Positions 1 to 16,896 of a DNA stretch of 64,000 nt are shown here, piece after piece. Origin of the DNA: Bacteroidales bacterium (GTDB taxonomy: Bacteria > Bacteroidota > Bacteroidia > Bacteroidales > UBA932); the NCBI GenBank assembly GCA_012839605.1, contig DUNA01000006.1, forward strand, positions 11 through 64,010, written 5' to 3'. The notes below the pieces were generated by a model, which did no database searches, was not told where the DNA came from, and saw only the letters and a program-made list of their open reading frames with translations. Position 1 is the stretch's first letter. Every line of letters starts with the position of its first letter. The position numbers and the translations under genes were made by a program.

Positions 1-248
1 ACCTATTCGATTTTGTGCTTCTCTGTCTGATGTTCCCCGTTCCACCCGCAGGCCTTTTTTGCCAAAATCCAGATTACACCGGAGCGAAATCATAACACCT
101 ACCCGGGGCGACAACGTAGTTCTTTCTGAATATCCATTGTCGAAAAGACTTTTTTTATGTGTGCGGTTCCTGTAAAATATCTCTGATCTCAGGACCCACT
201 TTCCATCACGGAAGCTTTTCTGCACCCCGCCGTTAATAGTAACTAATG

Positions 249-2318: not shown

Positions 2319-2350
2319 AGTAGCATTATTGTTATATTATTCTTTTTCAG

Positions 2351-5023
2351 CTATCTGATGCTGAACCGGACTTTAAGCAAAACAGAAAAGGGACGGAGCG
2401 TATAAGAGTAAATATAGGCGGTGACATCGGAATAGCTGGCCGTATTGAAATTTTTTGTGTTTAACAAATTGCGTGCTTCAAGTGTGTAATCGAACCGCTT
2501 GGTTTTATACCTTGTCTGAATATCCAGAAAGAACATGTTCCGGTCACCCGAGGTTATGGAGCTGTTATATGAGTGTTCGGCCGACAGGTTACAGGACCAC
2601 TTTTTGGTTATTATAAATTTTGCCGTTGCTTTTTGTGTAATCATCTGTATGGGATCCAGTTGCTGCGAACTGTTTTCAATCCGGCTATGGCTGTTATACC
2701 AGGTCCCACTATACTCTGCAACAACAGACTCGCCAATCCGTGACAAAATTTCCAAACCTGCGTTGTATGTCCTGTATGTAGTGTTCATAAGAGTTCCCTG
2801 CCGGAGGATATCCCTTAAAGAATAATTGTATCCGCCTTTCAGCGTTACAGTTGTAGCAATGGCATCAAAACGCTTTCCAAAACTGGCATTCGTCCGGACT
2901 CCCCGGGAAGTATTGTCAAAAGCGTAAGTAGTAAGCTGTGAGAGCGACCCTGAATATTCGGTTCCATATAACACATTGGAATGATTGACCCAGTACAAAG
3001 CATCCAGTGCCCCAAAAAGAGAAAGAATAGCATTGCCGTAGTTAAGGGTTACGGAACAGGAACTATAACGCGATTCACTTATGATCCCGGAACGGTTTTG
3101 GATGGTACGGTAATTGGTCATAATGTACCCTGTGTACATTTCATACAGTCCTCCGGTAATATGGGAAGTCATGGCATTAGCACTTATTTTCAGATTGTTG
3201 GAAAGTGTGGCGTTAACGTTAAGCCTGGGATCCAGGTACAGCCGGCTTATTTGCTGCAATACGGCGTTTTCCATGAAGTCCTTTAGAGTTATATCCCTGA
3301 AATTCAAAGAACAATGTAATCCCGCATCCCACCGGAATTTTCCCGAAGACCGAAATGTCACACCGGGTGAAAGGTGCAGATCCAGCTTATTCCACGAAAG
3401 ATGGTTTTGCAGGGAATCCGGAGCAGTGATGCTTTTGGTATTATCTTCCAGCGGGCTTAACATGGCAGTCATTCGTTCCTGCTGCCAGTTGGCATTGCCC
3501 CAAAGAGAAAACGTCCAGTCACGGACTTTTTTGTACAAACTGGCTGAATTGTTGGTAAAGAACCGTCGGCTGTCAAGTTCCTGAAAAGAGCCTCGGGCCG
3601 TTTGAACATCTGTTCCAAAAATGCCGGGATAAAGCAACGGTGTTACTTTCAAAGAAGAAGGACTATTGGAAAAATCGGTGATGGACGAACAGGAAAACCG
3701 CAAGGAGGAGAAGGGTTTTACCAGGTTAAATGTATTCCTGAGCCTGATGGCTGATGGAACGGAAAAATCTTGCAGGACTGTATCGGCAGACTGCAAAATC
3801 TGTCCGTGATCTATGTTCCGGCTTCCTTCCAATACAAGGTTATTTTTCAGGTACATTTTTTCTGTATTGGCCGTCAATTCAATTCCAAGATCCACCTGGC
3901 GGGTTTTCCTGGAGGCGCTGCTCTGTTCCCGGATGACCAGAGGCGAAGAATCCTTAATATAATAGGTGGTAACAGAGGATGCGTCGGAAAGTTGCCGGTC
4001 ATGCAGGTAGGCTCCATTGATGTTCAGCTGGTAATCATGTTTCAAAACATTCAGCGTGTTGACCGATACGGCATGTACATTATTATTCAGGTAGCGTTGC
4101 CGGTCAATGGCAGGAGCTCCCGGGGCCAGTATGCCCAACTGCGATACAGTTGCCTCAAGTCCACCGTAAAACGATTTTAATTCACCAGACACATCTTCAC
4201 CTGTATTGTTTGTTTTATAAGTGTTTAAGGTCTGAAACTTCCGGCCAAAAAAAATGGTTGTTACCTCCCCATTCCACATAATTGGTTTATAACCACCTCC
4301 TAATTGCACTACGGAATTGAACGTGCCTTTAGCACTCTCCTTAAGCTTTAGATTAATTGCCGGATCTGTTGAAAAATCGATATCTTTCAGTGCTTTTACA
4401 GGTTGGTGATTCTCTAATATCTGTACCGTTGCAATATCTTTTGCCTGGATATTTCTGGTCCCAATGCCATACCTGCCTTTTAGCAAATCAAGACCTTCTA
4501 CATAAAACTTGTTGATAGACTTGCCTAAATACCTGATCTCCCCACTTTCCCGTACTTCAATACCGGGCATTTTTTTTAACACATCACCTACAGAACGGTC
4601 AAGCGAATCAATAAAATTGGCAACATAGTAATTTACGGTATCACTACGACGCACTATGGGTTCTGCCTTTACAGTAACCTCACGAATGGTAAGCACCTGC
4701 TCTTCCACTTGTAAATCCACTGTTTGTGTCTTATTTTCTATGATTCTCATTTGCTCCTTTATGTTGAACCCGGTCACTTTAAGCATCATGCTATCAACTT
4801 TTGCATTACAGGAGAGTTTGTAACGGCCTTCTTCACCGGTTATCGTATAGGCATAAAAAGATTTGCCGTCTTTCGTTAGCAGCAGCACATTAACGTCCGG
4901 AACGGCTTTCCTGGCTTTACTGTCAGTAACTTTGCCACTAATGACTACCTGGCAACATAACTCCAAAGGTAACAGGAAAAAAAATAAGAAGATATAGTAC
5001 TTATACAACGGTGAAGATTTCAT
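2351..5023 (-). CDS. Outer-membrane beta-barrel protein with N-terminal carboxypeptidase-regulatory-like domain (TonB-dependent-receptor-like)
   Basis: 890-aa ORF with a signal peptide. 'ISGKVTDSKARKAVPDVNVLLL' is a CarbopepD_reg signature and 'VGDVLKKMPGIEVRESGEIRYLGKSINKFYVEG' is plug-like. The barrel-type terminal strand reads 'YTLRPFSVLLKVRFSIR'. Confidence 0.8.
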   Translation of the reverse strand: MKSSPLYKYYIFLFFFLLPLELCCQVVISGKVTDSKARKAVPDVNVLLLTKDGKSFYAYTITGEEGRYKLSCNAKVDSMMLKVTGFNIKEQMRIIENKTQTVDLQVEEQVLTIREVTVKAEPIVRRSDTVNYYVANFIDSLDRSVGDVLKKMPGIEVRESGEIRYLGKSINKFYVEGLDLLKGRYGIGTRNIQAKDIATVQILENHQPVKALKDIDFSTDPAINLKLKESAKGTFNSVVQLGGGYKPIMWNGEVTTIFFGRKFQTLNTYKTNNTGEDVSGELKSFYGGLEATVSQLGILAPGAPAIDRQRYLNNNVHAVSVNTLNVLKHDYQLNINGAYLHDRQLSDASSVTTYYIKDSSPLVIREQSSASRKTRQVDLGIELTANTEKMYLKNNLVLEGSRNIDHGQILQSADTVLQDFSVPSAIRLRNTFNLVKPFSSLRFSCSSITDFSNSPSSLKVTPLLYPGIFGTDVQTARGSFQELDSRRFFTNNSASLYKKVRDWTFSLWGNANWQQERMTAMLSPLEDNTKSITAPDSLQNHLSWNKLDLHLSPGVTFRSSGKFRWDAGLHCSLNFRDITLKDFMENAVLQQISRLYLDPRLNVNATLSNNLKISANAMTSHITGGLYEMYTGYIMTNYRTIQNRSGIISESRYSSCSVTLNYGNAILSLFGALDALYWVNHSNVLYGTEYSGSLSQLTTYAFDNTSRGVRTNASFGKRFDAIATTVTLKGGYNYSLRDILRQGTLMNTTYRTYNAGLEILSRIGESVVAEYSGTWYNSHSRIENSSQQLDPIQMITQKATAKFIITKKWSCNLSAEHSYNSSITSGDRNMFFLDIQTRYKTKRFDYTLEARNLLNTKNFNTASYSDVTAYIYSYTLRPFSVLLKVRFSIR

Positions 5024-5049
5024 AATCTAACTTGTTTAGTATATGATAA

Positions 5050-5955
5050 TTATTCCAGCTCCAAAGGAGGTATATAAGGTTTACGAAATGAAAGCCGCAT
5101 TTCTTCTGTAACAGGCACCATTTTTCCGGTTCTTCCATCGCGTGCAACAGGGGCTATTATTTTTCCGTGCTGTTCGAGCAAACCTATAGGATCATCCCAT
5201 ATTTTTCGCTGTAATTTCTGCAATTGCGCCCGGCTGATGATTTTTTCCCTGATGGCAGATGTTCCTGATAGTCCCTGTTTTTTTGTGTCATACATGAAAA
5301 TTAAGTTTTTTGTCTGACTGATTCCGGTGGCCCTCCACAGGAAAAGACCTTTGTTATCTTTTGCCTTGAGAATAAGCCCCGGCAATCCCTGAAATTTCCA
5401 AGGTCCTGCCTGAACAGGTATCTCAAGAGTGAACCAAACTTCGTAGGAACGGCCCCTGAAACAAGCGGTTGCTTTATAGCATTGGTGGGAAAGGATTGTA
5501 TCTGATTCACCCAGATTCAATTGCCAGTCAATATCAGGAACAGGTTCGTTGTAAATATATTCTGTGTTCACAATGGTTGTCCAGACGGTAAGCTGTCCTT
5601 TCCCGGGGTAATGGAAATAGTAATTTTCATAATGATCTTTTTCATTTGCTGCCATCCAGTTGCGCGGGTTTAAGCCGCCTTGTGTTTTACTAATTCTGGC
5701 CCTATACATGGTAGAATCTGTTTTGTCGGCTAAAAGACTGAAATAATGGATAAAATACGAACCAATATCCAATCGCTGCCGATCCGTATAACGCATATCG
5801 GAAAGAGTATCAATGGCAAATGTAAAGTCATACGTGACGGACAGGAAACTTGAATCTAGGATCGTCTTCTGTGTGACGTCACGGCAATCCGGATCCTGAG
5901 CCAGAGCATAGATTGCTGACAAACAGCAGTAAAATATGGTAAATGTCTTTTTCAT
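5050..5955 (-). CDS. GLPGLI family protein (TIGR01200-type), function unknown
   Basis: 301 aa with a signal peptide. Carries the name-giving motif 'PWKFQGLPGLILKA' and the C-terminal 'PYIPPLELE' shared with neighbouring paralogs. Its start overlaps the upstream stop by 1 nt (TAATG). Confidence 0.85.
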   Translation of the reverse strand: MKKTFTIFYCCLSAIYALAQDPDCRDVTQKTILDSSFLSVTYDFTFAIDTLSDMRYTDRQRLDIGSYFIHYFSLLADKTDSTMYRARISKTQGGLNPRNWMAANEKDHYENYYFHYPGKGQLTVWTTIVNTEYIYNEPVPDIDWQLNLGESDTILSHQCYKATACFRGRSYEVWFTLEIPVQAGPWKFQGLPGLILKAKDNKGLFLWRATGISQTKNLIFMYDTKKQGLSGTSAIREKIISRAQLQKLQRKIWDDPIGLLEQHGKIIAPVARDGRTGKMVPVTEEMRLSFRKPYIPPLELE

Positions 5956-6580
5956 TATTCCAGTTCCAAAGGAGGAATATAGGGAATCTTTACGTCTCCG
6001 GGTTTGGCTTCAATATATTCTCCGTTTTTATAAACGTAAAACTGTCTGTTCGCTGTTAGATAGAGAGAAACGGGGTCTTCCCAGAATTTTCGTTCGATTT
6101 TCTGAAAATCTTTTCTGGAAAGCGGATAGCTGCGCTTTTTCTCTATATCAAATATCAGTATTCTTCTTTCTTTTGGTCTGTATATTCCCATTACACGCCA
6201 TTCAAAAAGCCCTGAGCTTTCAGTTATCTGTAAAATAGTTCCCGGTAAGCCATTGAATTTCCATGGTCCGTAAGATATAGGAATGTCGGAAGTAAACCAG
6301 GCGGTATAATCTCTGCCTCTGAAACGAACAGTGGCTTTATTACAAGGATAACCTAAGATGGTTGTTGTATCATCTTGGATAATTCTCCATTCCATAACAG
6401 GCATTTCTTCTTCATAGACAAAATGGCTTATATAACCAACAGATACGGTTAGGATCCCCTTTTTCGGATAATTGTAATGACAATCGGCGTAGCTGATGGT
6501 TTCATTACTGCCCAGCCCCATTTCCTTAAATAGATTGTAAGCTTTGGTCGCCATAGCACGTACAGAATCGGCTTTCTTTA
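5955..6580 (-). pseudogene. C-terminal fragment of a GLPGLI family gene interrupted by the IS element
   Basis: Encodes '...KKADSVRAMATKAY...PWKFNGLPGTILQITE...PYIPPLELE' but lacks the signal peptide and N-terminal third. The tracked ORF start (GTG at 6602) lies inside the IS terminal repeat. Confidence 0.8.
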
Positions 6581-6668
6581 ATACTCCCCATCTTTCAACC
6601 ACCAGGTTAACTTTTTAAGTTTAGTTTTTACTTTTTTCGTTTTTTAATTTCTTCCTAATTTTTAATCT

Positions 6669-7526
6669 CTAAGCAGCATATTCATACCTGTAATTTGGGG
6701 TATAACGGTTCAGACTTTGATGGGTTCGTTGGTTATTGTAGTAGTAAAGATACTCTTTTAAGCCTTTCTGCAACTCTTTCCCATCTTCTGCCGGATTTAA
6801 ATAAACATATTCCCATTTAAGCGTTCTCCAAAATCTTTCTATATAAATGTTATCCAAAGCCCTTCCTCTTCCGTCCATACTGATAATGATATCCTCGTTT
6901 TTTAAATATTCCACCCATCCTGAACAGGTAAATTGGGATCCCTGGTCAGAATTAATAATTTCCGGTTTGCCATACAAAGCAATAGCCTCTTTTAATACCT
7001 CAAGCGAGTTTTGTGCGTCCAGTGTGTTGAATAATCCCCAACCAACTATATACCGGCTATATACATCGATAATGGCCGTCAGGTAAAGAAAACCGCGTTT
7101 CATAGGGATATATGTTAAATCTATACACCATACCTGATTACTGCGTGTTATTTCCAATCCTCTGAGCATATAGGGATGAATGTATTTGGCGATTCCCAAT
7201 TTACTCAGATTCTTTTGTGGATATATAGCCATGATTCCCATCTTTCGCAAAAGCCTGCGTACTCTTTTAGGACCGACCAATATGCCAAGCGTTTTAATAA
7301 AATCAACCATGCTCAACACACCCTTGTAAGGGTGGTCCAGAAATTCCTTATCCATATAACGCATCAACTCCAGATCTTCAGGATTTTCTGCTACCGGTTG
7401 ATAATATATGTTACTCCTGTTTACTCCCAAAAGCTCACATTGTCTGCGAACACTCACCTTATCCAGAGGATCTATGACTTTTTCGAGGGCTTCAGTATCC
7501 CCAATTGCTCTGAGACCCTTTTGCAA
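6669..7526 (-). CDS. IS3-family transposase OrfB (rve/DDE integrase core)
   Basis: Candidate DDE-context motifs are 'WCIDLTYIP', 'INSDQGSQFT' and 'ERFWRTLKWE'. The frame is -1 relative to orfA and stays open upstream of the tracked start through the A6 run. The two ORFs overlap by 55 nt. Confidence 0.9.
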   Translation of the reverse strand: MQKGLRAIGDTEALEKVIDPLDKVSVRRQCELLGVNRSNIYYQPVAENPEDLELMRYMDKEFLDHPYKGVLSMVDFIKTLGILVGPKRVRRLLRKMGIMAIYPQKNLSKLGIAKYIHPYMLRGLEITRSNQVWCIDLTYIPMKRGFLYLTAIIDVYSRYIVGWGLFNTLDAQNSLEVLKEAIALYGKPEIINSDQGSQFTCSGWVEYLKNEDIIISMDGRGRALDNIYIERFWRTLKWEYVYLNPAEDGKELQKGLKEYLYYYNNQRTHQSLNRYTPNYRYEYAA

Positions 7527-7780
7527 AAATCCACTTCTACCTCCAATCGGCCGATTTTTTCATATAAGGCCTTTTCACGTTTTATTACCTCTTCATCCGG
7601 AGCTTTGGTGGAAAAGATTTCTGAACCACGGGAAATGAATTCACGCTTCCAATTCGAAATCATTTGCGGATGCACTTCAAACCGTTTGGCCAGTTCGCTC
7701 AGTGTCTCCTGTTCTTTGATTGCCTCTATAGCCACTTGGGCTTTGAAGGCTGCACTGTGTTTCTTTCTTGTCTTTGACAT
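7472..7780 (-). CDS. IS3-family transposase OrfA (HTH, IS3/IS911-type)
   Basis: 102 aa. 'HSAAFKAQVAIEAIKEQETLSELAKRFEVHPQMISNWKREF' is a typical HTH_Tnp_1 domain, followed by a coiled-coil tail. Confidence 0.9.
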   Translation of the reverse strand: MSKTRKKHSAAFKAQVAIEAIKEQETLSELAKRFEVHPQMISNWKREFISRGSEIFSTKAPDEEVIKREKALYEKIGRLEVEVDFCKRVSEQLGILKPSKKS

Positions 7781-7840
7781 AATGGGTAAATTTAAGTGTT
7801 TTTGTTAAACTTACCCGGTGGTCTGAATTTACGGGAGTAT

Positions 7841-8080
7841 TATATTCTCCCCGTAGAGACTGTAATACCTGCTATATTTTTGTCCCACATCCAGCCGGTA
7901 TTTTTCGGAAAAAGGAGGATTTCCCAAAGTGTCTTTATGGAAAGTGTATAGATAATCCATTGTTAAAAGGCAGTCATCAATGGCTGTCATTCTGATAAAT
8001 TCTCTATTAACTCCACCAAGATCCTGTGCATAAACACTATTCGAAACGATTAAGAACAGAACTATCACTTTTGTTTTCAT
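7841..8080 (-). pseudogene. N-terminal fragment of the IS-interrupted GLPGLI family gene
   Basis: The signal peptide MKTKVIVLFLIVSNSVYAQ is followed by 'YLYTFHKDTL...YRLDVGQKYSRYYSLYGENI', which aligns with the N-termini of the paralogs at 8119..8985 and 5050..5955. The tracked ORF runs on into the IS and stops at 7829. Confidence 0.8.
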
Positions 8081-8118
8081 GTTTCAATACATTAGAATCG
8101 ACTTATGCAGACAAGTAT

Positions 8119-8985
8119 TTATTCCAATTCCCTGGCCGGAATATAAGGTCTCTTCCATTCTCCCGGACCAGCAGGTCTTTTAGTACCGTCGGGGTTCTTC
8201 AACGTAACATTGACTCTCTGACCGAGTGTCTGATACAGGAGAATTGGATCCTGCCAGGACATTTTTTGCAGTTTCAGATAGTCGGTTCTTGAACATTGTT
8301 GGGTACGTAATCCATCAAGCTTATACAGGATTCTGTTTGTTGGACGAAGGATAGCTGTGGCAGTCCATGTGAAGAGCTCTTCAGAATCTTGTGCCTTAAG
8401 GATCAGTCCAGGGAGACCGTTAAATTTCCAGGGTCCTGAAGAAATTGGAATTTCCTGCGTAAACCACACGTGGTATTCCCTTCCCCTGAAAACTGTAACA
8501 GCCTTAATACACTCGTAGCCAAGAATTTCTGTTTTCTCCTGCAGCAGATGCCACTCCATCCTGGGAACAGGTTCCTGATATACGTATTCCCTGTTGATAA
8601 CCCCGGATGAAACCATCAAGGTTCCTTTAGAAGGATAGTTGAAATAATAATCTTCGTAATTGATCTGAACGTCTTTTGCCAAATCTTTAAAAGGATTCAT
8701 TTGTCTTTCCGCGACTGCCCATGTAGAATCCACTTTTGCTCCGTTCAAACTGTAATATTTTGAGATTTGAGATCCAATTTCAAGGCAGTGTAAGTCGTGA
8801 AAACGGGTTTGGGTTACTGTGTCCTTATAAAAAGTATGTCTATAATTTACGGCATACCGGCAAGTATCAACAGGTACTTTGCTGGTTTTTTGCCTGAAAT
8901 AAGGATCATATACCTGTCCAAAACATTGAATTATGAACAAACTGAAAGACACGCATAAAAAGATTTTTCTCATTTTAATTAACAT
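8119..8985 (-). CDS. GLPGLI family protein
   Basis: 288 aa with a signal peptide, 'PWKFNGLPGLILKAQD' and a C-terminal 'PYIPARELE'. The start could instead be Met5 (8973). Confidence 0.85.
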   Translation of the reverse strand: MLIKMRKIFLCVSFSLFIIQCFGQVYDPYFRQKTSKVPVDTCRYAVNYRHTFYKDTVTQTRFHDLHCLEIGSQISKYYSLNGAKVDSTWAVAERQMNPFKDLAKDVQINYEDYYFNYPSKGTLMVSSGVINREYVYQEPVPRMEWHLLQEKTEILGYECIKAVTVFRGREYHVWFTQEIPISSGPWKFNGLPGLILKAQDSEELFTWTATAILRPTNRILYKLDGLRTQQCSRTDYLKLQKMSWQDPILLYQTLGQRVNVTLKNPDGTKRPAGPGEWKRPYIPARELE

Positions 8986-9012
8986 GAAAGTTTTAATAAA
9001 TAATATTCTAAG

Positions 9013-9047
9013 AAAAAACAGGGATAAAATTCAGTCCCTGTTTTTTT
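9013..9047 (-). terminator. Hairpin with flanking A/T runs immediately 3' of the RiPP precursor gene (possible intrinsic or bidirectional terminator)
   Basis: The plus strand reads 'AAAAAACAGGGA-taaaattcag-TCCCTGTTTTTTT'. On the minus strand the stem is followed by T6. It lies 8 nt after the precursor stop codon. Confidence 0.5.
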
Positions 9048-9054
9048 ATAAATC

Positions 9055-9279
9055 TTAAGGGTTTATTATCACTTCTTCAAGAAAGATAGTTAAATCCTCT
9101 AGTGGTACATCAGACCAAAGACCGTCTGCTTGATTTGCATAGCCATTATCTTGAGTTGAAGATCCACCATCATGTGCGTAGGCACATCCACAACCACAAG
9201 CGCCACCTCCAGTGATATGACTCATCTCTTTCTCATTAAGGCTATTTTTTTCAAGGTTATTTAATTTCAATGATTTCAT
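9055..9279 (-). CDS. GG-leader RiPP precursor peptide (GG-Bacteroidales rSAM-target type, TIGR04149-like)
   Basis: 74 aa. The leader 'MKSLKLNNLEKNSLNEKEMSHITGG' is followed by the Cys/Gly core 'GACGCGCAYAHDGG...'. The gene lies directly downstream of SPASM-domain genes. Confidence 0.75.
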   Translation of the reverse strand: MKSLKLNNLEKNSLNEKEMSHITGGGACGCGCAYAHDGGSSTQDNGYANQADGLWSDVPLEDLTIFLEEVIINP

Positions 9280-9491
9280 GACAACAAGAAATTATAAAAG
9301 CCTACTCGTTAGCTTTTCGGCATCCGCTCCGGATGATTTATACAGACCGGTTTCTGCATCACGATTACCTGCTCTCGGTTCTTGTGAAAAGAAGATATAA
9401 ATTTTATGCCTGTTTTCATTTTTACTTTGATATGTTTACAACCTTTGATCTGATGGAATAGGGTTTATCCGGCTGGCAAGACCGCGTAAAA

Positions 9492-10688
9492 CTATTTTAT
9501 TGTACATAAATTGTTTTTACCAAGAATCAATTCATATTGGCAGGGAGAAGGACAAAGCCACTGGTAAACACATCCGGAACAGGGCTCCTGGTCCCGGATT
9601 ACCCGCCAGGCAAAGTTTCTGTGTAATTCATTTTTAATTAAGTCATAAGGAGAATCCTGCATACATCCGATGGGTGGCTTGTTAACATTGGAATAAATCA
9701 ATCCGTCGGGTAACAAGACTAGTTTTCCAAAAAAATTAATATTAACTGCTTGGTGTGCGAATACAATCCTCTTGGATAGTCTTGTATTGGTAATATCTTC
9801 TTCATTCAAAAAAACAAACTGTTTGAAGAAAGCGTAATTATTATCGTAAATTGGGATATACCTGTACAGTTGTATTTTATATTGTGCTACCAGATGTTCC
9901 CAGTAATTGTACTCAGTCTGGCTCCTGATAAGGAAATTAAATTCAAAGGAATTTCGGGATTCGTCGGATGCGAGAAAATCATTCAACACTTTTAGTGAGG
10001 CTGGCTCGTATTCGCATATGAGGATAGTTGTTACATCGGGTTGTGTAAGAACGGAGGTTACATTATCTGACAGTTCCCGAACATGGCAATAATAAACAAC
10101 CGCTGGAGCCGTTGCTTTAAGTTTTTCCGTAAGAGATATTAAAAAATTTGTTGACTCAATATGTGAAAAAACAATATTGACCTTTTTAATATACCGGGAA
10201 TGTATATGACCAAGGAAGTTCAATATCTCTAAATCCTCAAGACAACTTTCGGAGTGGAACGGATAAAAGGTTTGTCGGTAATACAAAGGCCCTGAAAAAC
10301 GACCGCCGGCATATATGGTAAGGGTTGTCAAATACTTCAGGATGTCCTCGCCAAAGCTTTTTGAAGGACTATTTTCCAGTTTTTTTATATCATTCTGAAT
10401 AGAAAGAACGGGCGGAAGTGAATAAGCTTTTGCCGGATGTCTTGTAATGAATCCGTATTTTTTCCTGATTACCAGGTCAACAAATTCTGCTTCATCTGCT
10501 GTGAAATTCTCCGGTTCAATTTCAACAGAATACAGATTATCAACAAATAGTAAAGCAGAGCACAGGGATTTAAGTGAGGGCGTACAATTGAAGCCATCTT
10601 TTTCAAATGTTTTTGCATTATACAGTAACCCGGCACTAGCTTTCAGCCATAAAAAAGTGTCTGGGAGTAATGTTAAAACCTGTTTCAT
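9492..10688 (-). CDS. Pseudo-rSAM/SPASM protein of the GG-Bacteroidales peptide system (TIGR04150-like)
   Basis: 398 aa with no CX3CX2C motif. The C-terminal SPASM cysteine motif 'CSGCVYQWLCPSPC' is Cx2Cx5Cx3C. The start is 3 nt after the upstream stop, which suggests coupling. Confidence 0.65.
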   Translation of the reverse strand: MKQVLTLLPDTFLWLKASAGLLYNAKTFEKDGFNCTPSLKSLCSALLFVDNLYSVEIEPENFTADEAEFVDLVIRKKYGFITRHPAKAYSLPPVLSIQNDIKKLENSPSKSFGEDILKYLTTLTIYAGGRFSGPLYYRQTFYPFHSESCLEDLEILNFLGHIHSRYIKKVNIVFSHIESTNFLISLTEKLKATAPAVVYYCHVRELSDNVTSVLTQPDVTTILICEYEPASLKVLNDFLASDESRNSFEFNFLIRSQTEYNYWEHLVAQYKIQLYRYIPIYDNNYAFFKQFVFLNEEDITNTRLSKRIVFAHQAVNINFFGKLVLLPDGLIYSNVNKPPIGCMQDSPYDLIKNELHRNFAWRVIRDQEPCSGCVYQWLCPSPCQYELILGKNNLCTIK

Positions 10689-10691
10689 AAG

Positions 10692-11930
10692 TCATTCCAT
10701 TATAGCCTCTTTCATGATTTTTGCATACAAATAAGGGTGGTCTTTCAAGTAATCCATACAGGACACAGCATAGTATTTAAAAGCGGCATCTCCTGTATAT
10801 CCGGGACATACCGGAGCTTTGTTCTTATCAATACCAGGGATGAAATAAAGACACTGTGTACAACTTTTTTTTCTTTTACATAATTTACATTGAGCCTCCA
10901 TCTTTTCAAGATAGCTATTGTATTTATGAACAACGGAATCAAGATCCAATAATACGCTTTCTTCAGATATACTACCCAAAGCAAAAGAATGGTCTATTTT
11001 TTCACATTGCAAAATTTTACCATTTACTGTAACAAACATTTTTTTACCGAATGGTGTACACGTTCCGGTTGGTGTAACCGTAAAGTTTTCTTCATCTATA
11101 AACAGGCGGTTCAATTTCATATAAAATTGAGAAATATTAAATAAAACTCCCGGTTTATCGGTGTCATACATTCCTTTGAGAGAATCATTGACAGAGTGTA
11201 TGATGGCTTCCTTGAAAGTTGGACCTGTCTGGTAAAAGAATGCGTTTACCTTTTTTACAGATGGTATTAATTCATCGGGGATAGAGTCCATAGCATTAAT
11301 TTGCAGCACTATATTTTCAGCCTCTTCTGTTTTGCCTACATATATTTTAGCGTAAAACAGGTTAATATAAGCCAAAACATAATTTCTGTAATTCCCTGCC
11401 TTTTTACCAGCCTCCAGCCCCTTTTCATAACAGACCTCAGATTCAGGATAATTTCTGTTCCTAAGGTTGATGTCCCCCAAATACCCATACAGAAGCACCT
11501 GCAGAGTCTGGTTTTCTATGGCATGGGTCTTTATAACCTGTTCAGCTTCCCTCAAATGGACATATGGCAATGTGTCTATGGGATTGAGCCCATAACGGAC
11601 AATCCCCAGGTAGATCAGGGAGCGGGCAAGTTTTTCGGGATCTTTGCCGTTCCTGTACCATTCCGCTGCTAATGATATTATGGAATCGTCCGTGAAATCC
11701 ACATAAGATTTATCCCTGGCTATGGTCAGCAACAAATTGTAATAAGACTGCACTTCCCCGGGACACTCAGATACATCCATTTGTTCCAAACTATCCAGGA
11801 CAACCCGGGGCACGTGGCTGAGCAGGCTGTCCAGATTAGCCAGACGAGCTTGCATTACATGCTGCCTGATTGCCGTATTGCAGGAAACCAGCAGCAACAA
11901 GCCAAGCAGTATCCACAGGAATTTTTTCAT
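10692..11930 (-). CDS. Chimeric ORF: TPR-like lipoprotein N-terminus fused to the SPASM C-terminal domain of a radical-SAM peptide maturase (radical-SAM core absent)
   Basis: 412 aa. Residues 1 to ~270 carry the lipobox 'LLLLVSC' and a TPR-regulator-like helical region ('YYNLLLTIARDKSYVDFTDDSIISLAAEWY'). Residues ~285-412 read 'GTCTPFGKKMFVTVNGKILQC...CKLCKRKKSCTQC...VCPGY...HPYLYAKIMKEAIME', which is a SPASM motif set (Cx12Gx4C, Cx2Cx5Cx2C, C). No CX3CX2C is present. Confidence 0.7.
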   Translation of the reverse strand: MKKFLWILLGLLLLVSCNTAIRQHVMQARLANLDSLLSHVPRVVLDSLEQMDVSECPGEVQSYYNLLLTIARDKSYVDFTDDSIISLAAEWYRNGKDPEKLARSLIYLGIVRYGLNPIDTLPYVHLREAEQVIKTHAIENQTLQVLLYGYLGDINLRNRNYPESEVCYEKGLEAGKKAGNYRNYVLAYINLFYAKIYVGKTEEAENIVLQINAMDSIPDELIPSVKKVNAFFYQTGPTFKEAIIHSVNDSLKGMYDTDKPGVLFNISQFYMKLNRLFIDEENFTVTPTGTCTPFGKKMFVTVNGKILQCEKIDHSFALGSISEESVLLDLDSVVHKYNSYLEKMEAQCKLCKRKKSCTQCLYFIPGIDKNKAPVCPGYTGDAAFKYYAVSCMDYLKDHPYLYAKIMKEAIME

Positions 11931-11959
11931 GATTGTCCTGCTAAATTACAAAAATCGCT
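11915..11959. repeat. 45-bp direct repeat, copy A (5' UTR plus the first codons of the TPR-lipoprotein ORF)
   Basis: 'ACAGGAATTTTTTCATGATTGTCCTGCTAAATTACAAAAATCGCT' matches copy B at 43 of 45 positions. Confidence 0.9.
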
Positions 11960-12141
11960 TCAAAGAGAAAAGAGGTAGTATAACAAATGGACGAACCACA
12001 GGTTTGGCTTAATGCAAATGAATCTGACATTTATGAAGCGCCTCAGGCCTACAAACCCAAAGCAGAAATTCTACAGGCCATAGAGCCCCTTTGAAGACAA
12101 ATCCGTATGCTATAAAATTTTCATACCTTCACACAAAAACA

Positions 12142-12393
12142 ATGGACAACGATTTAACTATACTGCTTGAGACAACAGATAGGGTAATAGCAGAAGACAT
12201 TCAGGTTTTATTAGAAGACTCTCAGATTTATTCGTTGCTCGCTTCGGATAATCCGGCATCGTCTGTTTTAAGTATCTATCTCGGGTCTAATCCAATAGAA
12301 AACGTCAGCATTCAAGTAAACAAAAAAGATTATCAGAAAGCTGTTGAAATAATTAGTAACAGTGCATACAAGGATTTTTTAACAACTGTATAG
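12142..12393 (+). CDS. Small DUF2007-like (putative signal-transducing) protein
   Basis: 83 aa counted from the ATG at 12142; the tracked ORF starts at an upstream TTG. It has a two-half alpha/beta pattern ('TILLETTDRVIAEDIQVLLEDSQI' and 'IQVNKKDYQKAVEII'). Confidence 0.45.
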   Translation: MDNDLTILLETTDRVIAEDIQVLLEDSQIYSLLASDNPASSVLSIYLGSNPIENVSIQVNKKDYQKAVEIISNSAYKDFLTTV

Positions 12394-12406
12394 CAGAAAT
12401 GAAGGG

Positions 12407-13681
12407 TTAATCAAAATAATCCAGCAGCCACTTCCAGATAGGAATAACCTCAATAATGCGGCCATCTACTTCCAGAGTCTGTTCCTGATCTTTTGTTACA
12501 ATGATTAATCTTTTACAATCCAACACTTTAGTAATTTTTCTCAAAGCATCAACTTCCCGTTTGTACGTATCCGGGCTGCTGTCGAGCCTGTAACATACCT
12601 GAATGGCCAACGATGCTTCCGGAATATAAAAATCAACTTCGTGATTTTTGTGGTAATAAAAAACGGCATCTTCCCTGCCATATTTTCTGATCAGATTAAC
12701 TGCAACCAGGTTTTCAAGCAAGGCAGTATTGCCATCCAGCAAAAAAAGGTTGAGCAGTCCGTTATCCAGGAAGTAATATTTAGGATTGGTCTCTTTATTA
12801 ACTAGTTTGCCTGCAATATTTTGGATGGAAAGTAAGAGCCACGCATCTTTTGCATATTCCAGGTAGTTGATGATTGTATTTGTGGTTACTTTTGCTCCTG
12901 TTGAAGAAACAATATTCGCAACTCGGTTAAAAGACAAGGGTTGTCCAACGCTTTCTGCAATTTTTTTAAACATCACTCGTAATGCAAAGCTGTTAGAAAT
13001 AGTATTACGAGCTATTATATCGCCCAAAAAAACTTTTTGATATATACCGGATAGATAATTCCGTTTAACGGCAAAGTGAACTCCTTCCGGGAATCCTCCA
13101 AAAAAGAAATAATCCTGGAACTGCTTCATGAGTCTGGATTTTGTCTCTGTTGACATAGGCACTTTTTCGTTATAGCTGACTCCATTGGCAACTAAAAACT
13201 CTTTGAAACTATAGGGATACACTTCTACAGAAACAAACCTGCCTCCCAGTGTTGTTTGAATATCCGTGCTCAGCATTTTGGCATTGCTTCCTGTTATATA
13301 AACCTTATGCCCGGTATCGGCTAATCTGCGTGCAAATGTTTCCCAGCCTGCAACATTCTGAATTTCATCTAAAAATAAAACTGGTTTTTTACCATCAAGC
13401 TCTAAATGAATTTCCAGTAATAAGTTCAGATCGGTAGTTTCCATACCTATGAGACGTTCATCTTCAAAATTGACAAAGACAATCTGGTCCCATCCTGTGC
13501 CACTCCTCAGCAACTCCTGCATATGCTGATAAAGCAGGAATGATTTACCTGCCCTACGGATTCCTGTAAACACATAATTACCATACTCTTCAAATTGGAA
13601 TTCTCTTGGAATAACTCTGTATTTCGCAACCTCTTCGCGTGCATCGGCAAGCACTGTTTTTAATAGATCTTTGCTAATCAT
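12407..13681 (-). CDS. AAA+ ATPase (AAA_14 + DUF4143 architecture, COG1373-like)
   Basis: 424 aa with Walker A 'GIRRAGKSFLL' and Walker B 'VLFLDEIQNV'. The C-terminal 'EVDFYIP...' region is typical of DUF4143. Confidence 0.8.
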   Translation of the reverse strand: MISKDLLKTVLADAREEVAKYRVIPREFQFEEYGNYVFTGIRRAGKSFLLYQHMQELLRSGTGWDQIVFVNFEDERLIGMETTDLNLLLEIHLELDGKKPVLFLDEIQNVAGWETFARRLADTGHKVYITGSNAKMLSTDIQTTLGGRFVSVEVYPYSFKEFLVANGVSYNEKVPMSTETKSRLMKQFQDYFFFGGFPEGVHFAVKRNYLSGIYQKVFLGDIIARNTISNSFALRVMFKKIAESVGQPLSFNRVANIVSSTGAKVTTNTIINYLEYAKDAWLLLSIQNIAGKLVNKETNPKYYFLDNGLLNLFLLDGNTALLENLVAVNLIRKYGREDAVFYYHKNHEVDFYIPEASLAIQVCYRLDSSPDTYKREVDALRKITKVLDCKRLIIVTKDQEQTLEVDGRIIEVIPIWKWLLDYFD

Positions 13682-13837
13682 TGTGAATTTTGTTTTATCT
13701 ACTGAACAAAAATAGGTATTTTTTGTTTAATACACAAAACAGAATAGGCATACTTAATTGTAAGCCTTATAGGTATCTATAACGAACCTAGTTATTATAA
13801 GCGAATTGACTAATCGCTTTTATTATTATGACAGGAG

Positions 13838-13862
13838 AGCCTCACGCGAGTGGGGCTTTTTT
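13838..13862 (+). terminator. Orphan intrinsic terminator-like hairpin on the plus strand
   Basis: The 8-bp stem 'AGCCTCAC'/'GTGGGGCT' includes one G-U pair and closes a GCGA (GNRA) tetraloop, followed by a T-run. No plus-strand CDS lies upstream. Confidence 0.5.
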
Positions 13863-13893
13863 GCAATACACAGTTAGATAGAAACAAAAGCCA

Positions 13894-13938
13894 ACAGGAA
13901 TTTTCTCATGATTGTCCTGCTTAATTACAAAAATCGCT
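13894..13938. repeat. 45-bp direct repeat, copy B (promoter/5' stub of a TPR-lipoprotein-like gene)
   Basis: 'ACAGGAATTTTCTCATGATTGTCCTGCTTAATTACAAAAATCGCT'. On the minus strand it starts an 11-codon stub, 'MRKFLLAFVSI*'. Confidence 0.9.
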
Positions 13939-13989
13939 GAATTTGACTATTTTTGTTAATTCCATTTTAAAACACATATCCTACTTGTT

Positions 13990-15630
13990 ATGAAAAGAAT
14001 TGTTCTTGTTTTTTCTCTTCTCTTTCTTTCTTCTTTATGGTACAACAGTTTTGCCTGCACCGTTGTGGTAGCGGGCAAGAAAGCGACTGCTGACGGCAGT
14101 GTGTTGAATTCCCACACAGATTGTGGTCCCGATAACCGCGTACGCATTATCCCCGGACAAAAATTCAAAAAAGGAGCCATGGCTCCCGTATTTTGGGGTT
14201 TGCTGGACAATACACGTCCCACAGACGATTTTGGGGAAATCCTGGGATATATTCCTCAGGTAGAGCAGACGTATACGTATTTTCATTCTGCCTATTCCCA
14301 GATCAACGAGCACCAGCTGAGCATTGGGGAAAGTACTACCAACCAACGGCCGGAACTGGAGCTGACTAAAGGCGAAGGCGACCAGATCATGACCATAGAA
14401 CAGGCACAGGCCTTTGCACTGCAACGCTGCAAAACGGCCCGGGAAGCCCTGGACCTGATGACCCACCTGATGGAAACGTACGGTTTTCTGCCTTCCTGCG
14501 GAAAAGACCCCGAGCTGGTCACCCTGGCCGATCCCGACGAAGTCTGGATCCTGGAATTTTTTGCCGTAGGCAAAGGCTGGAAAAAAGATAGCGGAAAGCT
14601 TGGTTGCATTTGGGCTGCCCAACGCCTGCCCGATGACCACGTGGCCGTCATTTCCAACTGGAGTGTGATCAAAGAAATAGACCTTTCCAAACCGGAAGAA
14701 TTCAAAGCCTCTTCCAACTACATGAGCGTTGCCATTGAGAACGGATGGTACGATCCCAACGGAACCATGCCTTTTATCTGGAGCAATGCTTACGCAGGTA
14801 TTACGCCGAGGGAAGCCCACACCCACCGCCAATGGCTCTTCAACGCCTTGTACAACCCCGGCCTTCCGGAACTGCCTCCGCGCTGGACTAGCAATCCGTA
14901 CCAGAACCTGAATCAATACGGGCAGACGGTAGAACCCATAGCCATGTATCCCGTATCCTTCAAGCCGAACAAATTGTTCACCATTCAAGATATTATGGAA
15001 TTCCAGAGGAGCACGTTCACCGGCACCATTTACGACAAAGAGAACGATGCCGTATGGTACATACCCGGTCCCAACAACACCTTGGTAAAGAGCCCTCTGG
15101 CTACCCCCTTCCCCAGCGACAACTTGCAAAAACTGTTGAAAACCAACAGACGCCGTTTGGTGTCGCGTGTGGACGGCGAATACGGCTACTGTGCTCAATT
15201 GCGCAAAGACCTGCCTGACGGTATTGGAGGCATTTACTGGGTGTATGTGGACAACGCATACACCTCGCCCTACATTCCGTTTTTCACCGGCGTCACCAAA
15301 ACACCCGATGTGTATATGGAATACCACCCCGACCAATACTCAGACACGTCTGTGCGATGGGCTGTGGACGTAGTGGACAATTTGCTCAACCTGTGTTACC
15401 AGGAAGCCAAAAAAGACCTGGTACGCCTGCGGGAACCTATGGAACAATCATTCTTTGAGAAAAACAAAGAAATAGAACAACAATATCTGGCCCTGTACCG
15501 CAAGAACCCCAAAGCGGCCACCGAATTGCTGAACAACTACGCACAGGAATGCGCAGACACCATTATGGAAACGTACAGGGTTATACGAAATACGCTTTTT
15601 GAAAAATACACCAACAACAAATTGAGGTAA
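13990..15630 (+). CDS. C69-family peptidase (dipeptidase A-like), secreted
   Basis: 546 aa. The signal peptide is followed directly by the nucleophile context 'FACTVVVAGKKATADGSVLNSHTDC', the hallmark of peptidase C69. Confidence 0.8.
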   Translation: MKRIVLVFSLLFLSSLWYNSFACTVVVAGKKATADGSVLNSHTDCGPDNRVRIIPGQKFKKGAMAPVFWGLLDNTRPTDDFGEILGYIPQVEQTYTYFHSAYSQINEHQLSIGESTTNQRPELELTKGEGDQIMTIEQAQAFALQRCKTAREALDLMTHLMETYGFLPSCGKDPELVTLADPDEVWILEFFAVGKGWKKDSGKLGCIWAAQRLPDDHVAVISNWSVIKEIDLSKPEEFKASSNYMSVAIENGWYDPNGTMPFIWSNAYAGITPREAHTHRQWLFNALYNPGLPELPPRWTSNPYQNLNQYGQTVEPIAMYPVSFKPNKLFTIQDIMEFQRSTFTGTIYDKENDAVWYIPGPNNTLVKSPLATPFPSDNLQKLLKTNRRRLVSRVDGEYGYCAQLRKDLPDGIGGIYWVYVDNAYTSPYIPFFTGVTKTPDVYMEYHPDQYSDTSVRWAVDVVDNLLNLCYQEAKKDLVRLREPMEQSFFEKNKEIEQQYLALYRKNPKAATELLNNYAQECADTIMETYRVIRNTLFEKYTNNKLR

Positions 15631-15632
15631 TC

Positions 15633-16892
15633 ATGAGTTTGAACAGAAGAAGTTTTCTGAAAACGGCCGGTGGATTGGCGGCACTCACACTCGTTCCGCG
15701 CCGCGTTTTGGGAGGAAAAGGCTTCATAGCCCCCAGCGATCAGCTGACCAAAGGCATTATAGGTGTGGGAGGCATGGGGCGCGAACACATCAAATACGAA
15801 GGTACGCGACTGGTAGCCGTGTGTGATGTGGATACCAAACACATAGATGCCGCCGTGAAAATGGCGCCGGATCGCATAAAAACATACGAACACTTTATGG
15901 ATTTGATACAAGATCCCAACGTGGATATTGTTCATATTGCCACCCCACCGCATTGGCACGGCATCATGTCCGTAGAAGCGGCCAAAGCCGGCAAAGACAT
16001 CTGGTGTGAAAAACCCATGACACGTACCATAGGAGAAGGCAAACGTGTGATGGAAGCGGTCAAGAGAAACGGACGCATCTTCAGGCTGAACACCTGGTTC
16101 CGTTTTAAGGATACGTTCTACGGGCTGGGCACGACCGTTCAACCACTTAAAAAGCTGGTACAGAGCGGTCTATTGGGCTGGCCGTTGAAAGTGACCATAT
16201 CCCGCCATACAGGATTTGATTGGAAATTTTATTGGACAGGAAAAGAAAACTTGACTCCGGAACCGGTTCCGGCAAACCTCAATTACGACTTGTGGTTGGG
16301 ACCCGCTCCCTACAAACCGTACAACCCGCACCGCGTGCACACCACGTTCCGCGGTTATTGGGATTACGACGGCGGCGGATTGTGCGACATGGGACAGCAT
16401 TACATGGACCCCGTACAATACATCTTGGGCAAAGACAACGAAAGCCCCATCAGGGTAGACATAGATGCCCCGCAACAGCACCACGATGCCGTTGGCACCT
16501 GGCGCAGCATCACGTATACGTATGAGGACGGCTGCCAAATAGTACTTTGGGGTGACGATTACGGAGACCCCAATACGCCCTACATATCCGGTCCCAACGG
16601 AAACGTCTATCCCGGATTCCGTTGCGACATTCCCGACTGGCAACTGAAATTGGCCGATTTCCCGGAACCGGAACAACAAGAAACCGACTTCCTGGAATGT
16701 GTGCGTACACGAAGACCCTTTGCCCTCAACGAATCCAACGGTTTCCGAAGCGGCACCTTGGTAAACATCGGAGCCGTAGCTCTGCAGCTCAACCGTTCGT
16801 TGCGTTTTAACCCCCATACTTTGGAATTTATAGACGACCCTGCTGCTAACAAATTGTTGGATCAACCCATGCGAGGTCCTTGGAAAATCTAG
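15633..16892 (+). CDS. Gfo/Idh/MocA-family oxidoreductase with twin-arginine signal
   Basis: 419 aa with the Tat motif 'MSLNRRSFLKTAGGLAAL'. The Rossmann region reads 'KGIIGVGGMGREH...VAVCDVD' and 'EKP' falls within 'IWCEKPMT'. Confidence 0.85.
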   Translation: MSLNRRSFLKTAGGLAALTLVPRRVLGGKGFIAPSDQLTKGIIGVGGMGREHIKYEGTRLVAVCDVDTKHIDAAVKMAPDRIKTYEHFMDLIQDPNVDIVHIATPPHWHGIMSVEAAKAGKDIWCEKPMTRTIGEGKRVMEAVKRNGRIFRLNTWFRFKDTFYGLGTTVQPLKKLVQSGLLGWPLKVTISRHTGFDWKFYWTGKENLTPEPVPANLNYDLWLGPAPYKPYNPHRVHTTFRGYWDYDGGGLCDMGQHYMDPVQYILGKDNESPIRVDIDAPQQHHDAVGTWRSITYTYEDGCQIVLWGDDYGDPNTPYISGPNGNVYPGFRCDIPDWQLKLADFPEPEQQETDFLECVRTRRPFALNESNGFRSGTLVNIGAVALQLNRSLRFNPHTLEFIDDPAANKLLDQPMRGPWKI

Positions 16893-16896
16893 TGCA

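What the first reader, a model, noticed from the sequence alone, without database searches (positions are those of the whole stretch)
9492..11930. RiPP maturase pair without any radical-SAM core: pseudo-rSAM plus a TPR-lipoprotein::SPASM chimera
In the canonical GG-Bacteroidales system, a true rSAM/SPASM maturase (TIGR04148) pairs with a pseudo-rSAM (TIGR04150). Here the downstream gene, 9492..10688, looks like the pseudo-rSAM. It has a SPASM 'CSGCVYQWLCPSPC' motif and no CX3CX2C.

The upstream ORF, 10692..11930, keeps only a complete SPASM tail (residues ~285-412). That tail reads 'CTPFGKKMFVTVNGKILQC', 'CKLCKRKKSCTQC', 'VCPGY' and ends '...IMKEAIME'. Its first ~270 residues are a lipoprotein signal (LLLLVSC) followed by TPR-regulator-like helices ('YYNLLLTIARDKSYVDF..'). 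These resemble the N-termini of Bacteroidetes TPR/LuxR-type regulators.

Neither ORF has a CX3CX2C motif. There are two explanations:
(a) A deletion or recombination fused two genes and killed the maturase. This fits the IS hit and the frameshift nearby.
(b) This is an undescribed architecture in which a membrane-anchored TPR domain carries a stand-alone SPASM module.

The junction lies somewhere in nt ~11075-11240.
Basis: partly seen in the sequence, partly recalled or inferred. Interest (0 to 1): 0.75.

Follow-up and report, generated by a model that had tools for sequence, protein, structure and literature searches.

The report
Deletion scar fusing regulator to maturase
The odd "TPR lipoprotein + SPASM" gene is not a new enzyme type: it is the in-frame scar of a recent ~21-kb deletion that joined the front of a regulator gene to the tail of a radical-SAM peptide maturase and disabled a known Bacteroidales peptide-antibiotic cluster.

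Summary
The 412-aa ORF (11930..10692, minus strand) has a lipoprotein-type signal, TPR helices and a complete SPASM tail. Neither it nor the adjacent TIGR04150 pseudo-rSAM (10688..9492) has a CX3CX2C motif.

It is a recombination scar, not a new architecture.
- Residues 1-276 are the N-terminal half of a 533-aa TPR/TM-helix/LuxR regulator. Its DNA is 98.5% identical to the intact gene in Bacteroidales UBA5433.
- Residues 277-412 are the last third of a 431-aa TIGR04148 maturase. Its DNA is 99.9% identical to intact genes on many digester-metagenome contigs.
- The two join at window 11103-11111 in a 5-9 nt microhomology (AACnGCCTG).
- Overlapping reference contigs carry both parent genes in the same orientation, 20,821 bp apart. 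That interval holds the rSAM core, a second rSAM/pseudo-rSAM pair, a VKOR-thioredoxin gene, the C39-ABC exporter and HlyD. None of these is in the window.

No full-length homologue appears among 5.8 billion protein clusters. One other assembly (Logan SRR32869333) carries the same junction, so it is a real but rare allele. An IS3 insertion and a second short-repeat deletion lie nearby in the same locus. Interest is low.

The parts
10692..11930 (-). Chimeric 412-aa ORF: an in-frame fusion of regulator codons 1-276 to about the last 136 codons of the maturase (residues 296-431)
   Evidence: There is no full-length homologue, and TIGR04148 matches only over profile positions 271-410.
11103..11930 (-). 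Regulator-derived part: lipoprotein-type signal (LLVSC) plus about two-thirds of the TPR domain. The TM helix and LuxR/GerE HTH are missing.
   Evidence: 94% aa identity to P0001 residues 1-276. DNA is 95.1% identical to ctgA and 98.5% to UBA5433, with 100% over the 546 nt next to the junction. In P0001 the TM helix lies at 366-388 and GerE is present.
10692..11111 (-). Maturase-derived part: complete SPASM tail of a TIGR04148 rSAM maturase, without the rSAM core
   Evidence: Identical to P0013 residues 296-431 except for one residue. DNA is 99.94-99.96% identical to L027-L036, and those alignments stop at 11111.
11103..11111 (.). Deletion junction with microhomology AACnGCCTG (GCCTG exact)
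   Evidence: Three-way DNA comparison of the window with L007 and L001. Both alignments overlap on these 9 nt.
9492..10688 (-). Intact TIGR04150 pseudo-rSAM partner gene (398 aa)
   Evidence: 279 bits against a cut-off of 250. The exact protein is on 15 public contigs.
9055..9279 (-). TIGR04149 GG-leader RiPP precursor (74 aa, ...ITGGGACGCGC...)
   Evidence: 48.9 bits against a cut-off of 25
8119..8985 (-). GLPGLI-family protein (288 aa), a conserved cluster member
   Evidence: TIGR01200, 178 bits. Syntenic with L001.
6578..7844 (-). IS3-family insertion (1267 bp) that splits a GLPGLI gene into 8080..7829 and 6602..5955. The target-site duplication is TCT or TTCT.
   Evidence: L023, which is 99.94% identical to the window across the element, has its genes called as HTH_Tnp_1 plus rve.
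5955..5967 (.). Crossover point of a second deletion of 1.35 kb, which removed the second precursor and a GLPGLI gene. It lies in a 13-nt repeat, GGAACTGGAATAA.
2351..5955 (-). Distal cluster genes kept intact: GLPGLI (301 aa) and a CarboxypepD_reg outer-membrane-type protein (890 aa)
   Evidence: 100% identical to L002 and L022

Best explanation
The 412-aa ORF is the scar of one recent illegitimate-recombination event inside a large GG-leader RiPP supercluster of an uncultured anaerobic-digester Bacteroidales bacterium related to UBA5433.

Codon 276 of a TPR/TM-helix/LuxR one-component regulator gene was joined, in frame, to about codon 296 of the TIGR04148 radical-SAM/SPASM maturase gene. 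The join lies in a 5-9 nt microhomology.

Measured against intact relatives, 20,821 bp are missing. The lost genes are:
- the regulator's TM helix and HTH;
- a DUF3244-like gene;
- a VKOR-thioredoxin gene;
- one precursor;
- a GLPGLI gene and an outer-membrane-type gene;
- a second regulator;
- a second rSAM/pseudo-rSAM pair;
- another outer-membrane-type gene and another GLPGLI gene;
- the C39-peptidase ABC exporter and HlyD;
- another DUF3244 gene;
- the whole radical-SAM core (CNLKCKYC) of the maturase.

Inferred, not shown:
- The fusion is probably still transcribed from the regulator's start.
- Its product cannot cleave SAM.
- Its N-terminal export signal would send the SPASM cysteines out of the cytoplasm, where Fe-S clusters are not inserted. 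It would therefore be a non-functional remnant.
- The surviving pseudo-rSAM and precursor are orphaned, unless another maturase and exporter elsewhere in the genome serve them.
For: 1. Split homology. All 155 hits cover either residues 1-276 (533-aa TPR+GerE proteins, best 94%) or residues 263-412 (about 415-431-aa PF04055 proteins, best 94%). None covers both.

2. Parent genes are intact in close relatives.
- UBA5433 continues as an intact regulator past the junction. It is 100% identical to the window over the 546 nt before it.
- Ten contigs that carry exactly the window's pseudo-rSAM protein were shown. Nine match the window at 99.94-99.96% only as far as position 11111, and in all nine an upstream ORF is called in the maturase position: a complete 416- or 431-aa PF04055 gene in eight, and a 373-aa fragment cut by the contig end in L035.
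- P0013 scores 515 bits on TIGR04148 and has CNLKCKYC.

3. Junction. The window has ...AACCGCCTG|TTTATAGATG... The regulator reads ...AACCGCCTGGATAGC... and the maturase reads ...AACAGCCTGTTTATAG....

4. Ancestral layout. Contig Ga0265293_10005752 (L007 plus L019), L018 and L001 overlap at 99.7-99.99%. Together they place both parents in the same orientation, 20,821 bp apart.

5. None of the deleted genes has a copy elsewhere in the 64-kb window; only paralogue-level matches to cluster genes the window retains were found.

6. The same junction, with 3 SNPs, is in the Logan assembly SRR32869333_2854 (L034), which also runs into the IS.

7. The same locus carries two further lesions: an IS3 insertion with a target-site duplication and a 1.35-kb deletion at a 13-nt repeat.
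Against: - The ancestral layout is read from relatives, not from the window's own lineage.
- Right of the junction the window is only 90-95% identical to the reference contig that documents the full layout. Left of it the identity is 99.5-100%. The event could therefore have been the import of a truncated island fragment rather than an internal deletion.
- An 81-87% relative (L016) has a regulator directly upstream of the maturase. A different ancestral layout, and a much smaller deletion of about 1.8 kb, cannot be formally excluded.
- Non-function of the fusion product is inferred, not tested.
- Read support could not be examined.
Confidence: 0.88

Rival explanations
1. The scar is the same but arose differently. 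A truncated piece of the RiPP island from a donor strain was integrated by homology-facilitated illegitimate recombination. One end was anchored by homology to the left, and the other end joined at the GCCTG microhomology inside the recipient's regulator gene. No internal deletion of a complete resident cluster took place.
For: - Divergence steps abruptly at the junction. Left of it the window is 99.5-100% identical to L001, L002 and L027-L036. Right of it the window is 90-95% identical to the contig of that same reference population.
- All three SNPs between the window and L034 lie in the regulator part.
- The island has lower GC (0.37-0.42) than the flank (about 0.50).
Against: - The same pattern would appear if the boundary of an older imported tract lay anywhere inside the 20.8 kb that was later deleted, so the step is not diagnostic.
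- The regulator part is 98.5% identical to UBA5433, so it may simply belong to a different allele class.
- The outcome for the ORF is identical either way.
Confidence: 0.15
2. Assembly or library artefact: the contig wrongly joins two loci, and no such gene exists in any cell.
For: - The window appears to come from a metagenome-type organism.
- The exact 412-aa protein is not on record in the public collection.
- Identity levels differ on the two sides of the junction.
Against: - A separately assembled contig (Logan SRR32869333_2854, L034, 3507 nt) carries the identical junction with 3 SNPs nearby and runs into the same IS.
- The shared sequence at the join is only 5-9 nt, far shorter than typical assembler k-mers (established knowledge of assemblers, not tested here).
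- The join is in frame and co-linear with the reference gene order.
Confidence: 0.03
3. Genuine new architecture: a membrane-anchored TPR domain carrying a stand-alone SPASM module that acts with the pseudo-rSAM on the precursor.
For: - The fusion is in frame.
- The SPASM cysteines are complete.
- The allele occurs in two assemblies.
Against: - No homologue with this architecture exists among 5.8 billion clusters.
- Both halves are 98.5-99.9% identical to halves of intact genes, so there has been no time for adaptation.
- The break falls inside the regulator's TPR region, not at a domain boundary.
- No radical-SAM core is left in either ORF, and the exporter is gone.
- The export signal would place the SPASM domain outside the cytoplasm (inference).
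Confidence: 0.02

Closest known systems
GG-leader Bacteroidetes RiPP cassette: TIGR04149 precursor, TIGR04148 rSAM/SPASM maturase, TIGR04150 pseudo-rSAM, C39-ABC exporter and HlyD. NCBIfam names this set. It is reported in Bacteroides genomes in PMC4573289.
   Same: - The precursor (48.9 bits) and the pseudo-rSAM (279 bits) are bona fide members.
- The tail of the 412-aa ORF is the C-terminal third of a TIGR04148 protein.
- Gene order matches intact relatives.
   Different: - The radical-SAM core, exporter and HlyD are deleted.
- The maturase tail is fused to a regulator fragment.
- The cassette is a degraded remnant.
TPR/TM-helix/LuxR (GerE, PF00196) one-component regulators encoded at the head of these clusters (P0001, 533 aa)
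   Same: The first 276 residues, including the lipoprotein-type signal and TPR helices, are 94% identical to P0001 and 97% identical to the UBA5433 gene.
   Different: It lacks the rest of the TPR region, the TM helix (366-388) and the GerE HTH, so it cannot signal to DNA.
Fusion pseudogenes made by microhomology-mediated (RecA-independent) deletion, a general and well-known class of bacterial genome decay
   Same: - Short imperfect repeat at the breakpoint.
- Loss of all intervening genes.
- Other lesions nearby (an IS3 insertion and a deletion at a 13-nt repeat).
   Different: Nothing unusual, except that the join happens to be in frame and so looks like a multidomain protein.

Membership tests
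TIGR04148 radical SAM peptide maturase (GG_samocin_CFB), tested on the 412-aa ORF | Full-length HMM match at or above the curated cut-off (300 bits) | tested here: not met
   152.3 bits, covering only profile positions 271-410 of 411. The intact relative P0013 scores 515.4 bits over positions 3-410.
TIGR04148 radical SAM peptide maturase (GG_samocin_CFB), tested on the 412-aa ORF | CX3CX2C radical-SAM cluster motif and a PF04055 domain | tested here: not met
   No CX3CX2C and no PF04055 hit. P0013 has CNLKCKYC at residue 44.
TIGR04148 radical SAM peptide maturase (GG_samocin_CFB), tested on the 412-aa ORF | C-terminal SPASM domain with its cysteines | tested here: met
   TIGR04085 and PF13186 hits at residues 291-360. 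Cysteines at 291, 309, 348, 351, 357, 360, 375 and 391.
TIGR04150 pseudo-rSAM, tested on the 398-aa ORF | HMM match at or above the cut-off (250 bits), no CX3CX2C, and position next to the TIGR04148 and TIGR04149 genes | tested here: met
   279.3 bits, full length. No CX3CX2C. The neighbourhood is as in L001.
TIGR04149 rSAM-modified RiPP precursor, tested on the 74-aa ORF | HMM match at or above the cut-off (25 bits) with a GG leader-cleavage motif | tested here: met
   48.9 bits, with ...HITGGGACGC...
LuxR/GerE-type TPR regulator, tested on the 412-aa ORF | C-terminal GerE (PF00196) helix-turn-helix | tested here: not met
   No PF00196 hit. The alignment to P0001 stops at residue 276 of 533.
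IS3 family, tested on the element at 6578-7844 | Overlapping orfA (HTH) and orfB (rve/DDE), terminal inverted repeats, and a 3-4 bp target-site duplication | tested here: met
   - The two ORFs are at 7780..7472 and 7526..6669.
- The near-identical copy in L023 has HTH_Tnp_1 and rve called.
- The inverted repeats read TAATACTCCC, and TCT or TTCT is duplicated relative to the empty site.

The most novel reading that the evidence does not exclude
The in-frame fusion is kept and expressed, and it has a side activity. For example, it could be an exported, lipid-anchored TPR fragment that binds the cluster's signalling peptide but cannot signal, acting as a decoy or dominant-negative sensor. Alternatively, its transcription from the regulator's promoter could keep the orphan pseudo-rSAM and precursor expressed so that a maturase elsewhere in the genome can act on them.
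Probability: 0.04. Interest if true: 0.45.

Novelty: already known. Interest (0 to 1): 0.12.

Why it matters
The main value is as a caution. An in-frame deletion scar can pass for a new multidomain RiPP enzyme, and comparison with close relatives exposes it within a few steps. The window's cluster should be annotated as a degraded TIGR04148/04149/04150 locus, with the 412-aa ORF marked as a fusion pseudogene. It should not be used as a seed for a new family.

A secondary point is population-level. The intact allele was seen on at least 9 contigs and the deleted allele on one contig plus the window. Together with the IS3 insertion and the second deletion, this shows a large bacteriocin-type supercluster being lost stepwise in a digester Bacteroidales population.

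Tried and rejected
- Exact-sequence look-ups of the chimeric protein and of the neighbouring C69 peptidase found nothing on record.
I reached the upstream reference sequence with a metagenome scan using the 843-aa protein instead.
- I looked elsewhere in the 64-kb window for the deleted genes, which would have indicated a rearrangement rather than a loss. blastn and tblastn found only paralogue-level matches to retained genes.
- I tested whether the 1.35-kb deletion produced a hybrid GLPGLI-285/291 gene. It did not. The crossover is at the shared 13-nt end (GGAACTGGAATAA), and the 3' end of the 285-like gene is simply a divergent allele.
- PADLOC models gave nothing for either RiPP ORF.
- I did not run structure prediction, fold search or the large representative-protein search. 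The sequence-level evidence was already decisive.
Full report
**Observation.**
On the minus strand the window encodes a 412-aa ORF (11930..10692), a 398-aa ORF (10688..9492) and a 74-aa ORF (9279..9055). Downstream lie GLPGLI-family genes, an IS element and an 890-aa outer-membrane-type gene. NCBIfam calls the 398-aa protein a TIGR04150 pseudo-rSAM (279 bits, cut-off 250). It calls the 74-aa protein a TIGR04149 GG-leader precursor (48.9 bits, cut-off 25).

The 412-aa protein matches the TIGR04148 maturase model only over profile positions 271-410 of 411 (152 bits, cut-off 300). It also gives weak SPASM hits at residues 291-360 and a weak TPR_12 hit at 147-207, with no PF04055 hit. A regex search finds no CX3CX2C in either large ORF.

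**What the 412-aa ORF is made of.**
A search of 5.8 billion protein clusters returned 155 hits, and they fall into two non-overlapping sets.
- One set covers query residues 1 to about 276. These are proteins of about 530 aa with TPR and GerE/LuxR domains. The best is P0001 at 94% identity.
- The other set covers residues from about 263 to 412. These are PF04055 radical-SAM proteins of about 415-431 aa. The best is P0013 at 94% over the aligned stretch and one mismatch after the junction.

No hit covers both halves. BLASTP puts the switch at residue 276/277. The regulator aligns over 1-276 (...YMKLNRL). The maturase aligns from P0013 residue 296 onwards (LFIDEENF...). P0013 itself is a full TIGR04148 member (515 bits) with CNLKCKYC at residue 44.

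**The junction at DNA level.**
- Window 7845-11111 matches the intact maturase locus L001 at 99.5%.
- Window 11103-11959 matches the regulator locus L007 at 95.1%.
- The two alignments share 9 nt.

The window reads ...GAAATTGAACCGCCTG|TTTATAGATGAAG... The regulator reads ...GAACCGCCTGGATAGCGC... The maturase reads ...TATAACAGCCTGTTTATAGATG.... The crossover therefore lies in GCCTG, which is exact, or in AACnGCCTG with one mismatch. This is the usual signature of illegitimate recombination, and it is much shorter than the k-mer overlaps typical assemblers need to join sequences (established knowledge of assemblers, not tested here).

**Ancestral layout.**
A metagenome scan with the 843-aa protein of L002 returned L019. 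L019 lies on the same 20,452-nt contig as L007 (Ga0265293_10005752). The scan also returned L018. The pieces overlap as follows: that contig against L018 at 99.7% over 11.3 kb, and L018 against L001 at 99.99% over 12.8 kb. The 33-kb composite carries, all on one strand:
- regulator A (533 aa)
- a 118-aa DUF3244-like gene
- a VKOR-thioredoxin gene (524 aa)
- a precursor
- a GLPGLI gene
- an 879-aa outer-membrane-type gene
- regulator B
- a second TIGR04148 maturase (484 aa, 397 bits)
- a second pseudo-rSAM (421 aa)
- an 843-aa outer-membrane-type gene
- a GLPGLI gene
- the C39-peptidase ABC exporter (736 aa)
- HlyD (422 aa)
- a DUF3244 gene
- the 431-aa maturase
- the 398-aa pseudo-rSAM
- a precursor, then GLPGLI genes, a further precursor and the 890-aa gene

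On this composite the two breakpoints are 20,821 bp apart. blastn and tblastn with the intervening genes find no copy of them elsewhere in the 64-kb window; only paralogue-level matches to cluster genes the window retains were found.

**How recent and how real.**
- The regulator half is 98.5% identical at DNA level to the gene in Bacteroidales bacterium UBA5433 (L013). It is 100% identical over the 546 nt next to the junction. UBA5433 then continues as an intact regulator (...KLNRLDSAVIYGEACLN...).
- The window's exact pseudo-rSAM protein occurs on 15 public contigs, mostly from anaerobic-digester samples. Of the ten shown, nine match the window at 99.94-99.96% only up to position 11111. In all nine an upstream ORF is called in the maturase position: a complete 416- or 431-aa PF04055 gene in eight, and a 373-aa fragment cut by the contig end in L035.
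- The tenth, L034 (Logan assembly SRR32869333_2854, 3507 nt), matches window 11290-7784 end to end with three SNPs. It crosses the junction and runs 60 nt into the IS.

The deletion allele is therefore real, rare and young. The exact 412-aa protein is not on record anywhere.

**Likely consequence (inferred).**
The parent regulator has four parts:
- a lipoprotein-type signal (LLVSC);
- a TPR region;
- one TM helix at 366-388;
- a C-terminal GerE HTH.

This is the layout of a membrane-spanning one-component sensor with an extracytoplasmic TPR domain. The fusion keeps the signal and about two-thirds of the TPR region and then continues into the SPASM tail.

It has no radical-SAM core, so it cannot cleave SAM. 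Its export signal would send the SPASM cysteines across the membrane unfolded, where Fe-S clusters are not inserted. It also lacks the HTH, so it cannot regulate. The exporter, HlyD and every radical-SAM core of the supercluster are gone, and the remaining pseudo-rSAM and precursor are orphaned within this window. Whether a maturase or exporter exists elsewhere in the genome could not be tested.

**Other lesions in the same locus.**
- A 1267-bp IS3-family element (6578-7844) with inverted repeats and a TCT or TTCT target duplication splits a GLPGLI gene.
- A 1.35-kb segment of the reference, holding a second precursor and a GLPGLI gene, is missing. The crossover lies in a 13-nt repeat, GGAACTGGAATAA, at the ends of two paralogues.
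- Contigs L023-L025 carry these lesions but do not reach the junction.

**Rivals.**
- An assembly artefact is unlikely, given L034 and the very short shared sequence at the join.
- A genuine new architecture fails on three counts. No orthologue exists. Both halves are near-identical to intact genes. The break lies inside a domain.
- One variant of the main explanation remains open. Divergence steps at the junction: the window is 99.5-100% identical to the reference population on the left, but only 90-95% identical to that same population on the right. This could reflect the import of a truncated island fragment by homology-facilitated illegitimate recombination. The same pattern arises if an older import boundary lay inside the segment that was later deleted.
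- An 81-87% relative (L016) has a regulator directly upstream of the maturase. A smaller deletion from a different ancestral layout cannot be formally excluded. The closest relatives of both halves argue for the 20.8-kb layout.

**Comparison with known systems.**
The locus belongs to the known TIGR04149/TIGR04148/TIGR04150 cassette with a C39-ABC exporter and HlyD, as reported for Bacteroides genomes (PMC4573289). The 412-aa ORF fails the defining tests for TIGR04148 (score and CX3CX2C) and for a LuxR regulator (HTH).

**Verdict.**
This is a fusion pseudogene in a decaying, already-described kind of RiPP cluster. Interest is low.

Noticed in passing
window 6578-7844: IS3-family element (orfA 7780..7472, orfB 7526..6669) with terminal inverted repeats TAATACTCCC and a TCT or TTCT target duplication. 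It splits a GLPGLI gene into 8080..7829 and 6602..5955. The same insertion allele occurs in other digester metagenomes (L023, L024, L034).
   Followed up: yes
window 5955-5967: A second deletion of 1.35 kb relative to the L001 and L022 references removed a second TIGR04149-type precursor and a 291-aa GLPGLI gene. The crossover lies in a 13-nt repeat (GGAACTGGAATAA) at the stop codons of two paralogues. The last 180 nt or so of the retained gene are a divergent allele (75-94% identity).
   Followed up: yes
window 11915-11959 and 13894-13938, bracketing 11960-13893: A 45-bp direct repeat brackets a 1.93-kb segment. The repeat holds the regulator's start codon and 29 nt upstream of it. The segment carries a DUF2007 gene (12091..12393, + strand) and an AAA_14/DUF4143 ATPase (12407..13681, - strand). 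The ATPase matches the PADLOC candidate defence family PDC-S01 at 329 bits. The segment is absent from contig Ga0265293_10005752 and present in UBA5433. How it was inserted is unexplained.
   Followed up: partly
window 1-20000, with the step at 11103-11111: Divergence from the reference population changes abruptly at the junction, from 99.5-100% on the left to 90-95% on the right. The cluster side has GC 0.37-0.42 against about 0.50 for the C69-peptidase/GFO-oxidoreductase flank from 14000. This suggests that the RiPP island is exchanged between Bacteroidales lineages.
   Followed up: partly
L007, L018, L019 and L001 (composite reference, about 33 kb): The intact supercluster is built of modules. 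Three precursor-associated units were seen. One has a VKOR-thioredoxin fusion in place of rSAM enzymes. The other two have TIGR04148 plus pseudo-rSAM pairs. Each unit sits with a TPR/TM-helix/LuxR regulator or a DUF3244 gene, GLPGLI genes and a CarboxypepD_reg outer-membrane-type gene. The recurring link between GLPGLI genes, outer-membrane-type genes and GG-leader precursors has no assigned function.
   Followed up: no
L014, L016, L017 (genome-contig hits): Short contigs that carry this Bacteroidales-type cluster are filed in MAGs titled Methanolobus sp., Bacillota bacterium and Candidatus Paceibacterota. They are probably binning errors. L014 matches the window over the same stretches and at the same identity (95.1%) as the Bacteroidales regulator locus L007.
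   Followed up: no
L016 17-2630: In an 81-87% identical relative, the TPR/LuxR regulator lies directly upstream of the 431-aa maturase, 154 bp away. The position of the regulator in this cluster family therefore varies.
   Followed up: partly
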